A stretch of DNA of 19,876 nt, from the IMG/VR virus record IMGVR_UViG_2690316325_000023. One strand, 5' to 3'. A program made the translations under genes and the position numbers. Below are positions 10,833 through 19,036 of the stretch, piece after piece (position 1 is the stretch's first letter; the number at the start of each line of letters is the position of its first letter). The notes beneath the pieces were generated by a model. That model did not search any database. It saw only the letters and a list, made by a program, of their open reading frames with translations, and was not told the origin of the DNA. The DNA is from a virus. Taxonomy: Duplodnaviria > Heunggongvirae > Uroviricota > Caudoviricetes.

Positions 10833-11633
10833 TTAACCGCGCTTCGCCTTCTGCGTCGCGGTGGTTTTTCGTGTTGCAGGCTTCCGCGTTGTCTTTTTAC
10901 TTTTGCTGCTTTCGTCCTGCGCCTGCTGTGCGCTGGCGTCTTCTGGTGCGGCTGCGGAATCGGCTTTTTTCAGGGCGCGGGAAAGGGTTGCAATCTCGCG
11001 TTTCACACCTGCGTTCGGGTTCAGGTGCATTGCTTCGCGCAGCAGCTTCAGTGACAGTGCCATGCTGTCCGCATCGCTCAGGCCACGGCGGGCAAAGGCG
11101 CACGCCTTGCATAATTTGGCGCGCACTTCGTCCGGCATGTCCTGGTCGGTGACAATCTCCCGGAGGGTATCCAGTGGTTCGATAAAGGCGGACAAATCCG
11201 CGTCGGCATCCGTCCCGGCCTGCGTCAGTACCGGGTTGCAGATTTCTTCGGTCAGCACTGTGGCAGCAGTACGGCCAAAGTTATCCGGCATAATGAGGTT
11301 ATGACGGACCACATACGCACCAATACGCAACGCCAGCGGAAGATCGCCGCAGTCAATCGCCCACACCATCAGCGTGGCAATCACTTCATCCTGCTGCCCG
11401 CCGTCAGCCTCCAGCGTTCCCTCAATCCAGCCGGAAAAATCCGGCAACAACTCTTTTTTGATGGCGGCTTTCGCGCTTCTGGCCTGTACGCCCTTAAGCC
11501 GGGCCTGTGCCAGACGCAGACGATACAGCACCTCTTCATGCGCGGTACGCGCGGCGTGGTCCACGCCTTCATTCGCCCGGCCTGCGCGCTGTGCCATCAC
11601 GTTCTGCCAGTGTTGCTGTGCAGGAGTAATCAT
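10833..11633 (-). CDS. M: Terminase small (endonuclease) subunit M (P2 gpM-like)
   Basis: 266 aa, basic Lys/Arg-rich C-terminal tail; position between N and L. Confidence 0.88.
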   Translation of the reverse strand: MITPAQQHWQNVMAQRAGRANEGVDHAARTAHEEVLYRLRLAQARLKGVQARSAKAAIKKELLPDFSGWIEGTLEADGGQQDEVIATLMVWAIDCGDLPLALRIGAYVVRHNLIMPDNFGRTAATVLTEEICNPVLTQAGTDADADLSAFIEPLDTLREIVTDQDMPDEVRAKLCKACAFARRGLSDADSMALSLKLLREAMHLNPNAGVKREIATLSRALKKADSAAAPEDASAQQAQDESSKSKKTTRKPATRKTTATQKAKRG

Positions 11634-13745: not shown

Positions 13746-15497
13746 ATGATTCAGGACGCTTTTGTGCGCCAGCGTGCGCGGCAACTTTACTGGCAGGGTT
13801 ATCCGCCCGCAGAAATATCACGTCTGATGGGAATAAACCCGAACACGATTTATGCGTGGAAAAAACGCGACCAGTGGGATGAAACACCACCCGTGCAGCG
13901 TGTCACGCAGTCCATCGATGCGCGCCTCATCCAGCTTACTGAAAAACAGAATAAAACAGGTGGTGACTTCAAGGAAATAGACCTGCTGACCCGGCAGCTT
14001 AAAAAACTGCATGATGGCCAGCCGGATGCGACGGCCACAGGAAAGAAAAGCCGGGCGAAAAAACTCAAAAATCATTTCACGCCGGAACAGATTGCCGCAC
14101 TGCGGGAAAAAATCATCAGCAGGCTGGAGTGGCATCAGCGGGGCTGGTTTGACTCTCTGACCCTTTGCAGGGAAGCCGGGATACGTAACAGGATGATCCT
14201 GAAATCCCGACAGATTGGAGCGACATGGTATTTTGCACAGGAAGCACTGCTGATGGCGCTGCGTGACGATGTGGCGCAACCTTACCAGCGTAACCAGATT
14301 TTTTTGTCTGCGTCGCGTCGTCAGGCGTTCCAGTTTAAAAGCATTATTCAGAAGGCTGCATCTGAAGTTGATGTGGAGCTGAAAGGGGGCGATAAAATCA
14401 TCCTCTCCAACGGCGCAGAGCTGCATTTTCTTGGTACTTCTGCTGCGACGGCACAGTCCTACACGGGCAATTTTTATTTTGATGAATTTTTCTGGGTCAG
14501 TCGCTTTGCTGAACTGCGCAAGGTGGCTGGCGCTATGGCAACCCTCAGCGGACTGCGGCGCACCTACTTCTCCACGCCATCCACCGAAACGCACGAGGCA
14601 TACGCCTACTGGAACGGCGACCGCTGGAACGAGAAAAAGGCCACGCATAAACGCCAGCGTTTTTCTGTTGACTGGAAAACGCTGCATAACGGGCTTATCT
14701 GCCCTGACCGGACGTGGCGGCAAATTGTCACGCTGGAAGATGTGGTTAATCACGGCTGGAAACACACCGATATCGACGAAATTCGTGATGAAAACACCGA
14801 AGACGAGTTCCTCAATCTCTATATGTGTGAGTTTGTCCGCGAAGGGGAATCGGCATTTAACCTGAATATCCTGATTGGCTGCGGTGTTGACGGATACGAC
14901 GACTGGAAAGACTGGAAACCTTTTGCTCCCCGCCCGATGGGGAATCGTCCGGTATGGATTGGGTATGACGCAAACGGCAGCAGTGGCAACGGCGACAGCG
15001 GCGCTGTGTCCGTGGTGGTTCCTCCGGCTGTTCCTGGTGGCCGTTTTCGAACGGTGGAGACGCGACGCGTTCAGGGGCTGGAGTTTGAAGAACAGGCCAG
15101 AGTCATTGAAGAGTTCACGTGTCGCTACAACGTGGAACACATCGGCATTGATGTGACGGGCGGGAACGGGGAGGCTGTTTATCAGATAGTGAAGCGGTTT
15201 TTCCCTGCTGCTATTCCGTACACCTTCACGCTGTCATCCAAACGGTCGCTGGTACTGAAAATGCTGCAAATAATGCGTGCCGGACGGTGGGAATACGATC
15301 GCGCCGAACGCGAGCTGGTCGCGGCCTTTAACGCCGTGCGTAAGGTGAAAACACCGGGCGGCTTTATCACTTACGAAACGGACCGCGCGAGGGGGATCAG
15401 CCACGGCGACCTTGCGTGGGCAACCATGCTTGCTGTCATTAACGAACCAATTGGCGGCGAAGGAGAAAACGAGCGTTTCACGGTTATGGAGTTCTGA
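13746..15497 (+). CDS. P: Terminase large (ATPase) subunit P (P2 gpP-like)
   Basis: 583 aa; motifs LKSRQIGATWYFA, GAELHFLGTSA, TYFSTPST and DLAWA match the P2 terminase ATPase. Confidence 0.93.
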   Translation: MIQDAFVRQRARQLYWQGYPPAEISRLMGINPNTIYAWKKRDQWDETPPVQRVTQSIDARLIQLTEKQNKTGGDFKEIDLLTRQLKKLHDGQPDATATGKKSRAKKLKNHFTPEQIAALREKIISRLEWHQRGWFDSLTLCREAGIRNRMILKSRQIGATWYFAQEALLMALRDDVAQPYQRNQIFLSASRRQAFQFKSIIQKAASEVDVELKGGDKIILSNGAELHFLGTSAATAQSYTGNFYFDEFFWVSRFAELRKVAGAMATLSGLRRTYFSTPSTETHEAYAYWNGDRWNEKKATHKRQRFSVDWKTLHNGLICPDRTWRQIVTLEDVVNHGWKHTDIDEIRDENTEDEFLNLYMCEFVREGESAFNLNILIGCGVDGYDDWKDWKPFAPRPMGNRPVWIGYDANGSSGNGDSGAVSVVVPPAVPGGRFRTVETRRVQGLEFEEQARVIEEFTCRYNVEHIGIDVTGGNGEAVYQIVKRFFPAAIPYTFTLSSKRSLVLKMLQIMRAGRWEYDRAERELVAAFNAVRKVKTPGGFITYETDRARGISHGDLAWATMLAVINEPIGGEGENERFTVMEF

Positions 15498-16543
15498 TGA
15501 GCAGAAAAAATAAAAAAGTGCGCATGAGTTCACGCATTGATCTCGCTGATGCGCTCAGGAAAGAATCATCGCTCAGTGCATTCACATTTGATGGTCCTTA
15601 TCGCCTGACCGGGCATGACCTGCTGGACAATATGTACTGTGCTGATAACGGGCGGTGGTATGAAACCCCGGTGGACTGGTACGGTCTGGCAAGAGCCGCC
15701 CGGCAAACGTCCTGGCATCAGTCTGCGCTTTACTTTAAGCGCAATGTATTGCTCGGTTGCTACATCCCGCACCCGCTGCTTTCCCGGCAGGATTTCTCGG
15801 CGCTGGCGCTGGACTGGTTTGTGTTCGGTAACGCATTCCTTGAGCTTCGGAGTAATATGCTCGGCGAACCACTTAAATTACGGCACGCACTGGCGAAATA
15901 CGTGCGACGCGGAAGCGATCTTGAATCATGGTGGTATGTGCAGGATGGCAAGGACGCGTTTCAGTTTCGCCCTGGCAAAGTGTGCCACCTGATGAATCCG
16001 GACATTAACCAGGAAATTTACGGCATGCCGGAATATCTTGGCGCATTACTCTCGGCCAGCCTGTCTCATTCGGCGGACATGTTCAGAAAACTGTATTACG
16101 ACAACGGATCCCACGCCGGGTGCATCATCTACATCGGTGCAGCGCAGGTAAACCGCGAAAGCATGGACTCCCTGAAAGAAACGCTACAGGGGGCACGTGG
16201 TGGTGGTGCGTTTAAAAACGTGCTCATTCATGCGCCCAACGGGGGCAAAGAGGGGGTGCAAATTTTGCCGTTCCAGCAGATCACCGCAAAGGATGAGTTC
16301 ATGAATGTTAAGGCGGCATCCCGTGATGATGTGCTGGCTGCGCACCGCGTTCCGCCGCAACTGATGGGGGCGATGCCGGGCGAAAAAAGTGCGTTTGGTG
16401 ATGTGGAGAAGGCCGCGCGGGTTTACGCAATTAACGAGCTGATGCCCGTCATGGAGGCCATGAAGCACATCAATGACTGGCTTGGCGAAGAGGTGATCCG
16501 CTTTAACCCTTACGCACTGTTAGATACCCAGCCCACATCCTGA
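15497..16543 (+). CDS. Q: Portal protein Q (P2 gpQ-like)
   Basis: 348 aa (P2 Q is 344 aa); start overlaps the P stop; last gene before the probable cos region. Confidence 0.88.
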   Translation: MSRKNKKVRMSSRIDLADALRKESSLSAFTFDGPYRLTGHDLLDNMYCADNGRWYETPVDWYGLARAARQTSWHQSALYFKRNVLLGCYIPHPLLSRQDFSALALDWFVFGNAFLELRSNMLGEPLKLRHALAKYVRRGSDLESWWYVQDGKDAFQFRPGKVCHLMNPDINQEIYGMPEYLGALLSASLSHSADMFRKLYYDNGSHAGCIIYIGAAQVNRESMDSLKETLQGARGGGAFKNVLIHAPNGGKEGVQILPFQQITAKDEFMNVKAASRDDVLAAHRVPPQLMGAMPGEKSAFGDVEKAARVYAINELMPVMEAMKHINDWLGEEVIRFNPYALLDTQPTS

Positions 16544-16569
16544 CGCGCTTCGCTTGTCTGCTGCTTCGC

Positions 16570-16594
16570 CGGGGCATAAAAAATTTATGCCCCG
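16570..16594. terminator. Perfect 11-bp-stem hairpin (cggggcataaa-aaa-tttatgccccg) just downstream of Q
   Basis: Palindrome read directly, 26 nt after the Q stop. No clean U tract follows, so its role as a terminator is uncertain; it could belong to the cos/packaging region. Confidence 0.3.
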
Positions 16595-16993
16595 ACTCTC
16601 CAGCTCCTGTATCAGTCAGATAATTTCACGACGCTTTCCTGCTTATTGCCATCATCGACGGTCAGATTCTTACGCAATCCCACTGCGCTGACTGCATGTT
16701 CTCGCCGCCTCAGTGCGATTTTGACGGCCTTACCTTTCACCCCATCAAACCAGAATCCCTCACGTATTTTTCACGCTCAGCGTGAGAAATACGGCCATTC
16801 TGTTGTATCTCTGCGACATCGTTCAGGGAATGCTATTTACCCCCTGAAACGCGGGCTGTTCCCCCGTCACCTGCGCGCAGAAAAAACGCGTTTTTTTGTG
16901 CACGTACGGATCCTTGACGGATCCAGCCACCACGCGGGCCGGAAGTACAAAAAGTCGTTCAAAAAAATTGTGCAAACTTGTGCACTATCGTGC

Positions 16994-17020
16994 AAACAAA
17001 AAAAGCGCCTTATCGGCGCT
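16994..17020 (-). terminator. Rho-independent terminator of the 89-aa gene
   Basis: Minus-strand hairpin AAGCGCC-GAUAA-GGCGCUU followed by a U7 tract (plus-strand aaaaaaa at about 16995-17001), about 10 nt after the ORF stop. Confidence 0.55.
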
Positions 17021-17029
17021 TCAAAAGTA

Positions 17030-17299
17030 TCAATTGTTGCTGTGTATTAATCGCCAACCACGAACATATGCTTCATAGGCATCTCTGTGCCTTACAGTTC
17101 CAGCCTGGCTAAACGGAATGTTAGCTAAAACTAAATCATTCTGAGCCATAGCGCGTCCTTCAAGCGCATCTTTTATGCCTAGCTCAAAAGCACAGGCAGC
17201 GCATTTGTGCCGACCTTCTTGTCCTTGATATTCAGGGAGAGACAGAAATGTTGGATTATAACGATGAGGGTTCTTGCAAATACCTGTTTTAGCCCGCAC
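17030..17299 (-). CDS. Hypothetical 89-aa protein, unknown function
   Basis: GTG start with GAGG Shine-Dalgarno 8 nt upstream and a strong terminator downstream. Preceded by a structured leader. No family recognised by eye. Confidence 0.45.
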   Translation of the reverse strand: MRAKTGICKNPHRYNPTFLSLPEYQGQEGRHKCAACAFELGIKDALEGRAMAQNDLVLANIPFSQAGTVRHRDAYEAYVRGWRLIHSNN

Positions 17300-17429
17300 T
17301 TTATTTACCTCATAGGAAAAATATGCGTGCCTTTACAGAGGTGCGTGTAAGCAATAAAATATACGACGCACATTTTGATTTACTTCGGAAGGCACGCATA
17401 TCAGGTTAAGTGAGTCCGACCGAGTTTTA

Positions 17430-17461
17430 CGCCCCAATAGTTGCTGCTATTGGGGCGTTTT
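17430..17461 (+). terminator. Plus-strand intrinsic terminator (11-bp GC-rich stem plus UUUU)
   Basis: cgccccaatag-ttgctg-ctattggggcg followed by tttt on the plus strand. On the minus strand the same hairpin is not followed by Us, so it is directional. Confidence 0.5.
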
Positions 17462-17507
17462 GCATGGACAATGCCGCGCAATTATCTTGTCGCTCACAAT
17501 GCGAACG

Positions 17508-17535
17508 ATCTTACAAAAAGGCACATTACTGTCAA
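17508..17535 (-). promoter_or_regulatory. Candidate sigma-70 promoter (TTGACA-16-TAAGAT) reading leftwards, with GATC overlapping the -10
   Basis: Minus-strand TTGACA (plus 17530-17535), 16-bp spacer, TAAGAT (plus 17508-17513). A Dam site overlaps the -10 hexamer and three more GATC lie within about 80 bp. Confidence 0.35.
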
Positions 17536-17627
17536 GATAATTGATCGTTTTAATCGATAGATAATAGACAATCTATTTGTTTAACAGATCGATTATTGAA
17601 GTAAGTGTGCCAAATGGAATGATACTG

Positions 17628-17672
17628 TCTCTATAAACGTGAGCATTTTCTCTATAAACGTGAGCATTTTTC
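17628..17672. repeat. Two tandem copies of a 22-bp unit (tctataaacgtgagcattttc)
   Basis: Perfect direct duplication read directly, 13 nt downstream of the ParR-like gene stop. Confidence 0.8.
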
Positions 17673-17684
17673 GCGCAGATGCTT

Positions 17685-17996
17685 TTACTCAGGAAATAAC
17701 GCCCGGATATTCCCAGCCATCTGGCTGGTTATCTTAGCCACTGGTGCAGACTGTGCTTCAAACTTTTTTGAGCTGATTTGTGTCACAGGTAACATCTCAT
17801 CATCAGCCCATGCGGCCAGTCGGTAAGCCTCTGCCGGATTCGTCTTCAGAAGTGCCAGCCCGGCCAGAAAAGCCACGCGTTGGCCGCTTTTGCGGGCTTC
17901 TGGTGTAAGGCTGTCCAGCCAGGCGCATGCTTCTCCTTCGTTCTTGACGGCAGCTGGCTTCAGATAGAAACTTATTCTTCTGGTTGGTGTCGTCAT
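17685..17996 (-). CDS. parR: ParR/StbB-like centromere-binding protein (type II partition adaptor)
   Basis: 103 aa directly downstream of the ParM-like gene. RISFYLKP, LDSLTPEAR, RVAFLAGLALL and a C-terminal IRALFPE resemble R1/R100 ParR/StbB (TIAFKLNP, LDSIPQGER, AALTAGLAL, LRSLFP) as recalled from memory. Confidence 0.65.
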   Translation of the reverse strand: MTTPTRRISFYLKPAAVKNEGEACAWLDSLTPEARKSGQRVAFLAGLALLKTNPAEAYRLAAWADDEMLPVTQISSKKFEAQSAPVAKITSQMAGNIRALFPE

Positions 17997-18000
17997 TGGT

Positions 18001-18960
18001 TTACTCCTTGTTCATTGCGTACAGCCCATTAACCAGAGCAAATTGTGGCACTCCGTCCGCGATGAAAGTCGCATTAACTCCGCAGGCTTCGCGGATAGCG
18101 GGTGCCACAATCTCCGCCCCGCCACCGACAACCATCACCCGCCCGTAACCCGAAAAAACCGCCAGCGCGCGGATCACGCGTTGTTTCAGTGTTTCTTCCT
18201 TTTCACGAATAACCGCCATCAGGCTGGCGTAATGCGCGTCATTGTGGATGTGCTGGCGCAGCCAGGCTTCATCATGGCGATGTTCGATAATGGTATTGGC
18301 GATGTGGTGACTGGTGCGCATACCGTTAGTGGCCATCACCGACAGTACGGCATCGGCCATCAGGGAAACGCCTACGTGTGGATCGCAAAACACCTGGCTG
18401 ATACCTGCCAGTTGTCCCTGAACCTTTGCCACATCCAGCGTGGTTCCGCCTAAATCCACAATCAGCAGGGATTCAAACGGACTCATGTCAGCCAGTGCTT
18501 TAAAACCAGCCGGAATGGATTCAGGCATAACCCGTACGTTACGGATAGTGAATGCTTTTCCGTTCTGGTACGCCACCGGGCGCATGACGTTTGCTTTTTT
18601 GCGGTTGATGTTGGCCATGTCCGGCTGTGCGTTTGTGTCGAAATATTCGCTCAGTGGCAGGGTGACAACCACATCCACTTCCTGTGGTGTGATGCCTGAT
18701 TTGACCAGCGCGTGATGAATGGCAATGACATTCACATCGCTGTACTGGTATTGCGTGTCGGTCGTCTGGACAAAGCGATCGCTGACCGGATCAAAACCAT
18801 AGCGCACGCCATCAAGCATGTAGTTCGCGGGCTGCGTGCCACCGAACGGCGCAGACCATTCCGACTTGAAGCTGTTCGGGCTGATGGCGTTGCGGCGTTC
18901 GCCGTTCTCAGTCCATGCCAGCTTGATGTTGGTGGAGCCGTCATCGATACAAATTTTCAT
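18001..18960 (-). CDS. parM: ParM/StbA-like actin-family segregation ATPase
   Basis: 319 aa with the actin-fold phosphate and adenosine motifs IDDGSTNIKL, YSDVNVIAIHHAL, LIVDLGGTTLD, VMVVGGGAEI and LVNGLY; collinear similarity to plasmid R1 ParM over the whole length as recalled. Confidence 0.85.
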   Translation of the reverse strand: MKICIDDGSTNIKLAWTENGERRNAISPNSFKSEWSAPFGGTQPANYMLDGVRYGFDPVSDRFVQTTDTQYQYSDVNVIAIHHALVKSGITPQEVDVVVTLPLSEYFDTNAQPDMANINRKKANVMRPVAYQNGKAFTIRNVRVMPESIPAGFKALADMSPFESLLIVDLGGTTLDVAKVQGQLAGISQVFCDPHVGVSLMADAVLSVMATNGMRTSHHIANTIIEHRHDEAWLRQHIHNDAHYASLMAVIREKEETLKQRVIRALAVFSGYGRVMVVGGGAEIVAPAIREACGVNATFIADGVPQFALVNGLYAMNKE

Positions 18961-19036
18961 GTCGCTTTTCCTTATGTTGATTAATTAATCGTTTACGGGA
19001 TTCTGAAATCCCGTTTTTGCCTGTTTTATGCGCGCT

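What the first reader, a model, noticed from the sequence alone, without database searches (positions are those of the whole stretch)
16545..17000. Palindrome- and repeat-dense non-coding region after the portal gene: probable cos/packaging site
In P2 the cohesive-end site lies roughly 100-150 bp beyond the Q stop. This interval has no credible ORF but holds many symmetric elements. These include a perfect 11-bp-stem hairpin (16570-16594), a 31-bp near-perfect palindrome (about 16763-16793) and a perfect 10-bp palindrome ctgcgcgcag followed by A6-CGCG-T7 (about 16871-16897). There are also two acggatcc direct repeats (about 16906-16924) and three GTGCA(A/C) repeats at helical spacing (about 16968-16996). 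A GC-rich stretch at about 16694-16713 (ctcgccgcctc) loosely resembles, from memory, the complement of the P2/186 cohesive-end sequence. I could not identify an exact P2 cos match.
Basis: partly seen in the sequence, partly recalled or inferred. Interest (0 to 1): 0.4.

Follow-up and report, generated by a model that had tools for sequence, protein, structure and literature searches.

The report
P2-family phage cos packaging site
The non-coding stretch after the portal gene of this P2-like E. coli prophage does hold the phage's DNA-packaging (cos) site, but only in its last ~165 bases; this is an ordinary, expected feature in a sequence variant of the classic P2 site.

Summary
The window is a P88-like (Xuanwuvirus) member of the P2 family. 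gpP lies at 13746-15497 and portal gpQ at 15497-16543.

The cos interpretation holds, but the site is confined to 16829-16995. This is the only part of the interval conserved in divergent relatives whose portals are 68-78% identical. It is also the only DNA shared with a portal-less, terminase-less P4-like satellite island, which mirrors the P2/P4 relationship.

The layout matches the mapped cos regions of P2, P4 and 186:
- a G+C-rich 19-mer at 16853-16871 (lower strand GGTGACGGGGGAACAGCCC, 13/19 identical to P2);
- a T-run plus GTGCAC box at 16898;
- exactly 72 nt further on, three GTGCA boxes at 16970, 16980 and 16990.

P2, P4 and 186 carry ATGCA boxes at the same 72-nt distance. The variable cargo hotspot starts right after the last box.

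The 16570-16594 hairpin, the 31-bp palindrome and the ACGGATCC repeats are clade-specific and not part of the conserved site.

Virion DNA ends were not mapped, so the nick positions are inferred to about ±3 nt. I rate this a new member of a known kind, of low-to-moderate interest.

The parts
16829..16995 (.). cos region as a whole: the block shared between this phage lineage and its satellite-like island, ending at the last GTGCA box
   Evidence: blastn of the window against satellite L008 aligns only 16829-16994, at 79% identity. 415 E. coli records match the satellite query only over this segment. The divergent prophage L005 aligns only over 16850-17005. Conservation collapses after 16995.
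16853..16871 (-). Predicted 19-nt cohesive-end sequence (cosN). Lower strand reads 5'-GGTGACGGGGGAACAGCCC-3'. Predicted nicks are at 16852/16853 on the + strand and 16871/16872 on the - strand, to about ±3 nt.
   Evidence: It occupies the same position and orientation as the annotated P2, P4 and 186 cohesive ends relative to the portal gene and box 1. It is 13/19 identical to P2. It shares GGTGA.G.GGG with the mapped phiRSA1 end quoted in PMC5694545. The flanking bases 16850-16878 are at least 95% conserved outside the 17-mer used for retrieval.
16871..16897 (.). CTGCGCGCAG palindrome plus the A6CGCGT7 palindrome. It sits where P2, P4 and 186 have the inverted repeat CGCCCGC..GCGGGGCG.
   Evidence: Only TGCGCGC (16872-16878) and the T-run are conserved in divergent relatives. 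The A6CGCG part is clade-specific.
16891..16903 (.). T-run plus box 1 (GTGCAC, 16898-16903)
   Evidence: 94-100% conserved across 103 unique sequences. It is equivalent to GGTTTTAATGCA inside the 55-bp P2/P4 core.
16906..16924 (.). Two ACGGATCC direct repeats in the box1-box2 spacer. Only the first GATCC (a Dam site at 16909-16912) is conserved widely.
   Evidence: 89-98% conservation at 16907-16913. The rest of the spacer diverges to 36-53% identity while keeping its length.
16961..16995 (.). A-run plus boxes 2-4 (GTGCAA 16970, GTGCAC 16980, GTGCAA 16990). Proposed terminase small-subunit binding array, cosB-like.
   Evidence: At least 90% conserved. The box1-to-box2 distance is 72 nt in about 113 of 116 unique sites and also in P2, P4 and 186. 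Box spacing is 10/10 here, 10/12 in P2 and 10/13 in P4 and 186.
16570..16594 (+). Perfect 11-bp hairpin 27 nt after the portal stop. Probable 3' end, terminator or stabiliser of the P-Q transcript, in the position of P2 tQ and 186 tW. Not part of cos.
   Evidence: z -5.3. P2 and 186 annotate terminators at the equivalent place. There is no U-tract, so the consensus scan does not call it. It is conserved only in the close clade.
16763..16793 (+). 31-bp near-perfect palindrome, clade-specific, function unknown. Fully paired only as + strand RNA.
   Evidence: It is absent from divergent relatives and from the satellite.
17002..17022 (-). Intrinsic terminator of the minus-strand cargo gene 17030-17299. 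It marks the start of the variable hotspot directly next to cos.
   Evidence: z -3.65. Similarity to most relatives ends at 16994-17021.
10833..11633 (-). gpM-like terminase small subunit (trans-acting partner of the site)
   Evidence: Pfam Phage_term_smal at 5.6e-37. It is 36% identical to P2 gpM.
13746..15497 (+). gpP-like terminase large subunit (trans-acting partner of the site)
   Evidence: 44% identical to P2 gpP over the full length, E 7e-166.
15497..16543 (+). gpQ-like portal gene, whose stop defines the start of the interval
   Evidence: 47% identical to P2 gpQ. Annotated as portal in related phage records.

Best explanation
Positions 16829-16995 are the cos site of a P88-like (Xuanwuvirus) P2-family prophage. 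It works as the P2 cos site does.

Proposed mechanism (inferred):
1. After excision and replication, the terminase (gpM small subunit at 10833-11633, gpP large subunit at 13746-15497) recognises a composite signal on the hotspot side of the cut site.
2. That signal is one GTGCAC box preceded by a T-run (16891-16903), then three GTGCA boxes at 10-bp spacing preceded by an A-run (16961-16995). The gap between box 1 and box 2 is 72 nt, about seven helical turns, so all boxes face the same side of the helix.
3. The enzyme makes staggered nicks in the adjacent G+C-rich 19-mer (16853-16871). This leaves 5' single-stranded ends of about 19 nt (lower strand GGTGACGGGGGAACAGCCC), and the DNA is packaged.

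What is shown here: the conservation pattern, the shared geometry with P2, P4 and 186, and the satellite sharing only this block.

What is inferred: that gpM binds the boxes, the exact nick positions (±3 nt), and the length and polarity of the overhang.

The first 285 nt of the interval (16545-16828) are a clade-specific spacer. They hold the probable P-Q transcript end (hairpin 16570-16594) and a palindrome of unknown role.
For: 1. Context. The terminase and portal are homologues of P2 gpM, gpP and gpQ at 36%, 44% and 47% identity. The site lies between the portal stop and the variable cargo region, as in P2 and 186.

2. Architecture. With the portal side on the left, P2, P4, 186 and this window all read: 19-mer, about 24-27 nt, T-run plus RTGCA box. 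Then, 72 nt from box start to box start, come three more RTGCA boxes about 10-13 nt apart.

3. Fixed spacing. The 72-nt gap holds in about 113 of 116 unique sites from IMG/VR, metagenomes and E. coli genomes, although spacer identity falls to 36-53%. The P2 and P4 spacers are only 18% identical to each other.

4. Conservation. Across 103 unique sequences, the near-invariant blocks are 16850-16878, 16892-16902 and 16959-16994. The 40 divergent sequences in that set drop to about 37% identity over 16545-16845, which is noise. In the retrieved loci, portals are as little as 68-78% identical.

5. Satellite. A 12.5-kb island encodes integrase, an AlpA-like protein, a primase, Ogr/Delta and a gpN-like capsid protein, but no portal or terminase. 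It shares only 16829-16994 with this phage lineage. The P2/P4 blastn overlap is the 55-bp cos core, described in the literature as the only homology between those elements (PMC9122126 and PMC9594776).

6. Hotspot. The hotspot border falls directly after box 4, as reported for P2-like phages in PMC9122126.

7. Active relatives. The close relatives P88 and PhiSM are active phages (PMC5285337, PMC6456863). They are 92.6-96.6% and 94.3% identical to the window here.
Against: - No physical end data. None of 240 retrieved IMG/VR or metagenome stretches ends at the site.
- No phage record in the collection is linearised at the site. NC_049391 is cut arbitrarily at the position equivalent to 16949/16950.
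- The 13/19 match to the P2 cohesive end is, taken alone, within chance for a 20-kb window.
- MAFFT and my manual register differ by 2 nt.
- Binding of the boxes by gpM is an analogy with lambda cosB and has not been tested.
- It is not known whether this particular prophage can be induced.
Confidence: 0.85

Rival explanations
1. The conserved block is a transcriptional control region (promoter, operator or terminators) for the neighbouring cargo or portal genes, not a packaging signal.
For: In P2 the old-tin transcript starts about 150 nt from the cohesive end. Direct repeats at helical spacing are typical of operators. One terminator-like hit overlaps boxes 2-3 on the minus strand.
Against: The neighbouring cargo differs in every lineage: doc/phd, an S8 peptidase, hypothetical genes, or an integrase in the satellite. 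Yet the block and its geometry stay constant. Here the cargo gene is transcribed towards the block and has its own terminator at 17002-17022. No sigma-70-like promoter is found within 16829-16995. The satellite keeps this block and nothing else.
Confidence: 0.04
2. The GTGCA iterons are the centromere (parC) of the ParM/ParR partition system encoded at 17685-18960.
For: The prophage encodes ParM (StbA) and ParR (StbB) homologues. Type II centromeres are arrays of roughly 10-11-bp direct repeats (general knowledge).
Against: The boxes lie downstream of parR, with an unrelated cargo gene and a terminator in between. Known parC sites lie upstream of parM. Identical boxes occur in relatives and in a satellite that have no parMR. 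Equivalent ATGCA boxes occur at the same spacing in P2, P4 and 186, whose annotated cos-proximal genes (old/tin in P2, gop/beta/cII in P4, orf97 in 186) include no par genes.
Confidence: 0.02
3. The cohesive end lies elsewhere in the interval, for example at the GC-rich stretch 16694-16713 proposed by the first reader, or the phage packages by a different mechanism.
For: The distance from the portal stop (about 150-170 nt) would match P2 better. The nick site has not been mapped.
Against: 16694-16713 does not pass a 7-mismatch scan against the P2 or 186 ends. It lies in the part that is unalignable in divergent relatives and absent from the satellite.
Confidence: 0.03
4. The sequence is a true cos homologue, but this copy is a relic in a defective prophage and is no longer used.
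For: Nothing in the window shows that this prophage can be induced. At least one relative (L076) has an IS1-like insertion inside the core.
Against: The site here is uninterrupted. Its 160-nt core is 100% identical to copies in other E. coli genomes and 92.6-94.3% identical to those of the active phages P88 and PhiSM. Full-length terminase, portal and capsid ORFs are present.
Confidence: 0.06

Closest known systems
cos site of coliphage P2 (19-nt 5' cohesive ends GGCGAGGCGGGGAAAGCAC; 55-bp core, Ziermann and Calendar 1990, as cited in PMC9594776 and PMC5694545)
   Same: - Position: beyond the portal gene stop and next to the accessory-gene hotspot.
- Orientation.
- A G-rich 19-mer, 13/19 identical.
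- A T-run plus RTGCA box about 25 nt away.
- Three further RTGCA boxes starting exactly 72 nt after the first.
- Homologous gpM, gpP and gpQ.
   Different: - The boxes are GTGCA, not ATGCA.
- No 55-bp block is alignable by blastn against P2.
- The 19-mer lies 309 nt from the portal stop, against 167 nt in P2.
- The inverted repeat next to the 19-mer has a different sequence.
- The last box spacing is 10 nt, against 12 in P2.
- The terminase proteins are only 36-44% identical.
cos sites of satellite P4 and of phage 186
   Same: Same box geometry (72 nt, then 10 nt) and the same order of elements. The P4/P2 relationship, in which the only shared DNA is cos, is reproduced here by the L008-type island and P88-like prophages.
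   Different: P4 and 186 carry the P2-type 19-mer and ATGCA boxes. The helper-satellite shared block here is about 166 bp at 79% identity, against 55 bp at 95% for P2/P4.
cos of Ralstonia phage phiRSA1 (mapped end GGTGAGGCGGGGTCCAAC, quoted in PMC5694545)
   Same: The 5' half of the predicted end (GGTGACGGGGG) matches GGTGAGGCGGGG at 10 of 12 positions. This supports the register chosen for the nick on the minus strand.
   Different: The host and lineage are distant. I did not examine the flanking boxes of phiRSA1.
lambda cos (cosN nicking site plus cosB with R sites bound by the small terminase subunit)
   Same: Functional analogy only: a nicking site flanked on one side by an array of short repeats with fixed phasing.
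   Different: There is no sequence relationship. Lambda has 12-nt ends and a different terminase family. In lambda cosB lies next to the terminase genes, whereas here the boxes lie on the side away from them.

Membership tests
P2-family cos site | Lies between the stop of the portal gene (Q) and the accessory/hotspot region, internal and uninterrupted in the prophage | tested here: met
   The portal gene ends at 16543. The site lies at 16829-16995. Variable cargo starts after 16995.
P2-family cos site | G+C-rich cohesive-end sequence related to GGCGAGGCGGGGAAAGCAC | tested here: inconclusive
   There is no exact or near-exact match. At the architecturally equivalent position there is a 13/19 match to P2, and the 5' GGTGA.G.GGG is shared with phiRSA1. 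Taken alone, this identity is within chance.
P2-family cos site | Conserved core around the 19-mer that includes the T-run and first RTGCA box (the '55-bp core') | tested here: met
   16846-16903 has the same element order as the 55-bp P2/P4 block. Its key positions are 94-100% conserved in the lineage. The sequence itself is a variant.
P2-family cos site | Distal array of three RTGCA boxes 72 nt from the first box (read here from P2, P4 and 186; I could not check whether this is stated in the literature) | tested here: met
P2-family cos site | Shared with cognate satellites as the only common DNA | tested here: met
   The L008-type island shares only 16829-16994.
P2-family cos site | Cognate terminase of the gpM/gpP type encoded nearby | tested here: met
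P2-family cos site | Virion DNA ends with 19-nt 5' overhangs at this site; the fragment is sufficient in cis for packaging | not testable with these tools
   No contig or record ends at the site. This needs virion DNA end mapping and transduction assays.
Type II partition centromere (parC) | Iteron array immediately upstream of parM, co-occurring with parMR | tested here: not met
   The boxes lie downstream of parR, beyond another gene. They are also present in elements without parMR.

The most novel reading that the evidence does not exclude
The packaging signal of enterobacterial P2-family phages is a fixed-geometry composite: a nick site plus four RTGCA boxes, with an invariant 72-nt gap. 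The box sequence (ATGCA in P2, P4 and 186; GTGCA in the P88 and Novemvirus lineages) would define separate helper-satellite packaging specificity classes. The GTGCA class would be exploited by its own P4-like satellite family, which I did not find described, and which, unlike P4, encodes a gpN-like capsid protein.
Probability: 0.3. Interest if true: 0.5.

Novelty: new member of a known kind. Interest (0 to 1): 0.3.

Why it matters
Practical value:
- It fixes where the mature genome of a very common E. coli prophage type begins and ends. The 160-nt core is present in 1149 of 5426 complete genomes.
- It marks the exact border of the cos-adjacent cargo and defence hotspot.
- It gives a compact, roughly 166-bp candidate packaging signal for cosmid or delivery vectors that use P88-type helpers.

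Conceptual value is modest. The comparison suggests that the P2-family packaging signal has a strictly conserved geometry but a changeable recognition word. It also suggests that satellites track their helper's word. If confirmed, this would help predict which satellites a given helper can mobilise.

Tried and rejected
- Exact and near-exact scans for the P2 and 186 cohesive ends found no match with fewer than 5 mismatches anywhere in the window.
- I looked for physical ends in public data. In neither the IMG/VR scan nor the metagenome scan with the 17-mer GCTGTTCCCCCGTCACC did a match lie at a contig end. Loci that seemed to start near the site were internal cuts of stored contigs or breaks at an IS1-like insertion. 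About half of the metagenome hits and three IMG/VR hits were chance 17-mer matches inside unrelated genes.
- The NC_049391 record ends were checked as possible termini. They join seamlessly with no terminal repeat, in a non-conserved spacer, so the cut is arbitrary.
- The small ORFs in the interval are not supported as coding. Pfam finds nothing for the 42-aa ORF.
- Rfam gave only sub-threshold noise. The best was gyrA RNA at 22 bits against a cut-off of 45, over the hairpin.
- Literature search found no description of the cos site of P88-like phages. The primary P2/P4 cos paper (PubMed 2265763) is not held. I therefore cannot say whether the RTGCA boxes and the 72-nt spacing were already noted there.
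- The ParMR centromere and promoter/operator readings were considered and rejected (see rival explanations).

Full report
**Context**

The window is a P2-family prophage read in the orientation opposite to the standard P2 map. Late genes run down to the terminase small subunit gpM (10833-11633, -). They are followed by the capsid and scaffold genes, the terminase large subunit gpP (13746-15497, +) and the portal gpQ (15497-16543, +). These three proteins are 36%, 44% and 47% identical to P2 gpM, gpP and gpQ, and gpM matches Pfam Phage_term_smal.

The nearest phage records are Escherichia phages 500465-2, 520873 and P88, Citrobacter phage PhiSM and Xuanwuvirus P88_4B11. They are 93-98% identical over 16400-17100. 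The intergenic region is present at over 90% identity in about 1100 of 5426 complete E. coli genomes.

**The observation**

- a perfect 11-bp hairpin at 16570-16594;
- a 31-bp palindrome with one mismatch at 16763-16793;
- CTGCGCGCAG at 16871-16880, followed by A6CGCGT7 at 16881-16897;
- ACGGATCC at 16906 and 16917;
- GTGCAA, GTGCAC and GTGCAA at 16970, 16980 and 16990, exactly 10 nt apart.

A fourth GTGCAC at 16898 was missed. Both hairpins fold far better than shuffled controls (z -5.3 and -7.0). The A6CGCGT7 region does not (z -0.47).

GTGCAM is under-represented in the window overall, at 14 positions. Four of them fall within 98 nt, a clustering with a position-corrected probability of about 2e-4.

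The interval has no credible gene. The 42-aa ORF at 16612-16740(-), annotated in NC_049391, shows no third-position excess among 63 close relatives (21/18/15 variable sites), and some relatives carry stops or frameshifts. The 134-aa + strand ORF is equally unconstrained.

**Where the conserved signal is**

Three divergent P2-like prophages or phages were compared: L005, L006 (Enterobacter phage phiT5282H, genus Novemvirus) and L007. Their intergenic regions after the portal gene are unrelated to the window except for one segment equivalent to 16850-17005.

I aligned 103 unique sequences retrieved from IMG/VR with the 17-mer GCTGTTCCCCCGTCACC. Three blocks are near-invariant: 16850-16878, 16892-16902 and 16959-16994. 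The 40 divergent sequences in that set are about 37% identical over 16545-16845, which is noise, and about 67% over 16846-16994. In the retrieved loci, portals are as little as 68-78% identical. Conservation collapses to 30-40% right after 16995. In most E. coli genomes, similarity to the window also ends at 16994.

**Comparison with mapped cos sites**

P2, P4 and 186 have annotated cohesive ends. With the portal side on the left, all three read as follows:
1. the 19-mer (GTGCTTTCCCCGCCTCGCC in P2 and P4);
2. a short inverted repeat;
3. GGTTTTA followed by an ATGCA box;
4. a non-conserved spacer;
5. three further ATGCA boxes.

The window reads GGGCTGTTCCCCCGTCACC, then TGCGCGCAG-A6CGCG, then T7 followed by GTGCAC, then a spacer, then three GTGCA boxes.

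The start-to-start distance from the first to the second box is 72 nt in P2, P4, 186, the window, L005-L007 and the satellite L008. The next spacing is 10 nt in all of them. The last is 10 nt here, 12 in P2 and 13 in P4 and 186.

Among 116 unique genuine sites from IMG/VR, metagenomes and E. coli genomes, 111 score 72 directly. Two more do so once a stray TGCA in the spacer is discounted. Spacer identity to the window falls to 36-53%. The P2 and P4 spacers are only 18% identical to each other. A length conserved without sequence conservation points to a geometric constraint. Seventy-two nt is about seven helical turns.

**The predicted cohesive end**

The 19-mer at the equivalent position (16853-16871; lower strand GGTGACGGGGGAACAGCCC) is 13/19 identical to the P2 end. 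It shares GGTGA.G.GGG with the experimentally mapped phiRSA1 end quoted in PMC5694545. Taken alone, 13/19 is within chance for this window. Position, orientation and conservation give the match its weight. MAFFT prefers a register 2 nt to the right, so I quote the nick positions to about ±3 nt.

**Satellite evidence**

A 76.7% match to 16846-16994 lies in E. coli mip270_05 inside a 12.5-kb island between gcd and hpt. The island encodes an integrase, an AlpA-like regulator, an Icd/CI-like protein, an 889-aa primase, a second integrase, an Ogr/Delta zinc-finger protein and a 423-aa P2-family capsid homologue. It has no portal or terminase.

blastn aligns the window and this island only over 16829-16994. 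When the island's Ogr-cos-int segment is used as a query, 56 genomes carry most of it. About 415 further records, the P88-like prophages, match only the cos part. In strain TOE17 both elements are present.

This reproduces the P2/P4 relationship. The P2/P4 blastn overlap is exactly the 55-bp core, and the literature describes cos as the only homologous region between those elements (PMC9122126 and PMC9594776).

**Interpretation**

Positions 16829-16995 are the cos site.
- Shown: the conservation pattern, the shared geometry with three mapped sites, the satellite sharing only this block, and the adjacent hotspot border.
- Inferred: that the gpM small subunit binds the GTGCA boxes (by analogy with lambda cosB), that gpP nicks within 16853-16871 to leave 19-nt 5' ends, and that the change from ATGCA to GTGCA reflects a changed terminase specificity. 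The last point is consistent with gpM being only 36% identical to P2 gpM.

**The rest of the interval**

The stretch 16545-16828 is conserved only in the close P88-like clade.
- The hairpin at 16570-16594 sits where P2 and 186 annotate the terminator of the P-Q (W) operon. It lacks a U-tract and is not called by the consensus scan. I read it as the transcript's 3' end or a stabiliser.
- The 31-bp palindrome is fully paired only as + strand RNA. Its function is unknown.
- The terminator at 17002-17022(-) belongs to the cargo gene 17030-17299(-). It marks the start of the cos-adjacent hotspot described by PMC9122126.

**Rival readings**

- A promoter or operator reading fails. The neighbouring genes differ in every lineage while the block stays constant, and no promoter-like site is found inside it.
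- A ParMR centromere reading was prompted by the ParM and ParR genes at 17685-18960. It fails because the boxes lie downstream of parR beyond another gene, and they also occur in elements without parMR.
- A relic-site reading cannot be excluded for this individual prophage. However, the site is intact. Its 160-nt core is 100% identical to copies in other E. coli genomes and 92.6-94.3% identical to those of the active phages P88 and PhiSM.

**Limits**

No physical ends were found in any collection. No paper in the library describes the cos of P88-like phages. The primary P2/P4 cos paper is not held, so I cannot say whether the RTGCA boxes and the 72-nt spacing were noted before.

**Verdict**

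This is a sequence variant of a well-known kind of site, so I class it as a new member of a known kind. Interest is low to moderate. The main added value is the precise anatomy, the conserved geometry, and a cognate satellite family noticed along the way.

Noticed in passing
L130 + L008 (E. coli mip270_05, NZ_CM132658, about 4411344-4423900); cos copy at L008 4984-5150: A 12.5-kb P4-like satellite island lies between gcd and hpt. Gene order is: integrase, AlpA-like regulator, Icd/CI-like protein, 889-aa primase, second integrase, cos, Ogr/Delta, two hypothetical proteins, a 423-aa gpN-like capsid protein (PF05125, about 36% identical to the gpN homologues of the retrieved P2-like loci, with an N-terminal extension) and mazEF. 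It has no portal or terminase. About 56 complete E. coli genomes carry it. It shares only the cos block with P88-like prophages. I found no mention of capsid genes in P4-like satellites in the one paper whose text I searched (PMC8628076).
   Followed up: partly
window 17685-17996 (-) and 18001-18960 (-): The prophage encodes a type II partition pair: ParR/StbB (PF10784) and the actin-like ParM/StbA (PF06406, PF21523). This hints that P88-like phages may be maintained as plasmids at some stage. The expected centromere upstream of parM (about 18961-19036) was not examined.
   Followed up: no
window 17030-17299 (-), with 17300-17685 beyond it: The cos-adjacent hotspot cargo here is an 89-aa protein of unknown function (phrog_3941, no Pfam hit) with its own terminator at 17002-17022. 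About 385 nt with no ORF over 50 aa follow it, containing two promoter-like hits.
   Followed up: partly
L076 (IMGVR_UViG_2681813261_000011), last 49 nt of the contig: In one relative an IS1-like end (GGTAATGACTCCAACTTATTGATAG..., recognised from memory) is inserted directly after ...CCCCCGTCACCTG. That is inside the cos core, so this prophage should be unable to package.
   Followed up: no
window 16909-16912: A GATC (Dam) site 6 nt after box 1 is 89-98% conserved across divergent lineages of this cos type. It is absent from the P2, P4 and 186 sites. Some of the divergent relatives encode a DNA adenine methylase.
   Followed up: no
window 16936-16945: A short G+C-rich block (GGGCCGGAAG) in the middle of the otherwise variable 72-nt gap is 93-99% conserved at most of its positions. 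It may be a binding site for an accessory factor.
   Followed up: no
L002/L004 (NC_049391, Xuanwuvirus P88_4B11): The reference record is linearised at the position equivalent to window 16949/16950, inside the cos region between box 1 and box 2. It has no terminal repeat. It annotates the unsupported 42-aa ORF as gp01.
   Followed up: yes
L252/L253 (phage 186), L009 (P4), L001/L003 (P2): The three classical mapped cos regions share four ATGCA boxes with a 72-nt gap between the first and second. This goes beyond the published 55-bp core. I could not check whether it is already described.
   Followed up: partly
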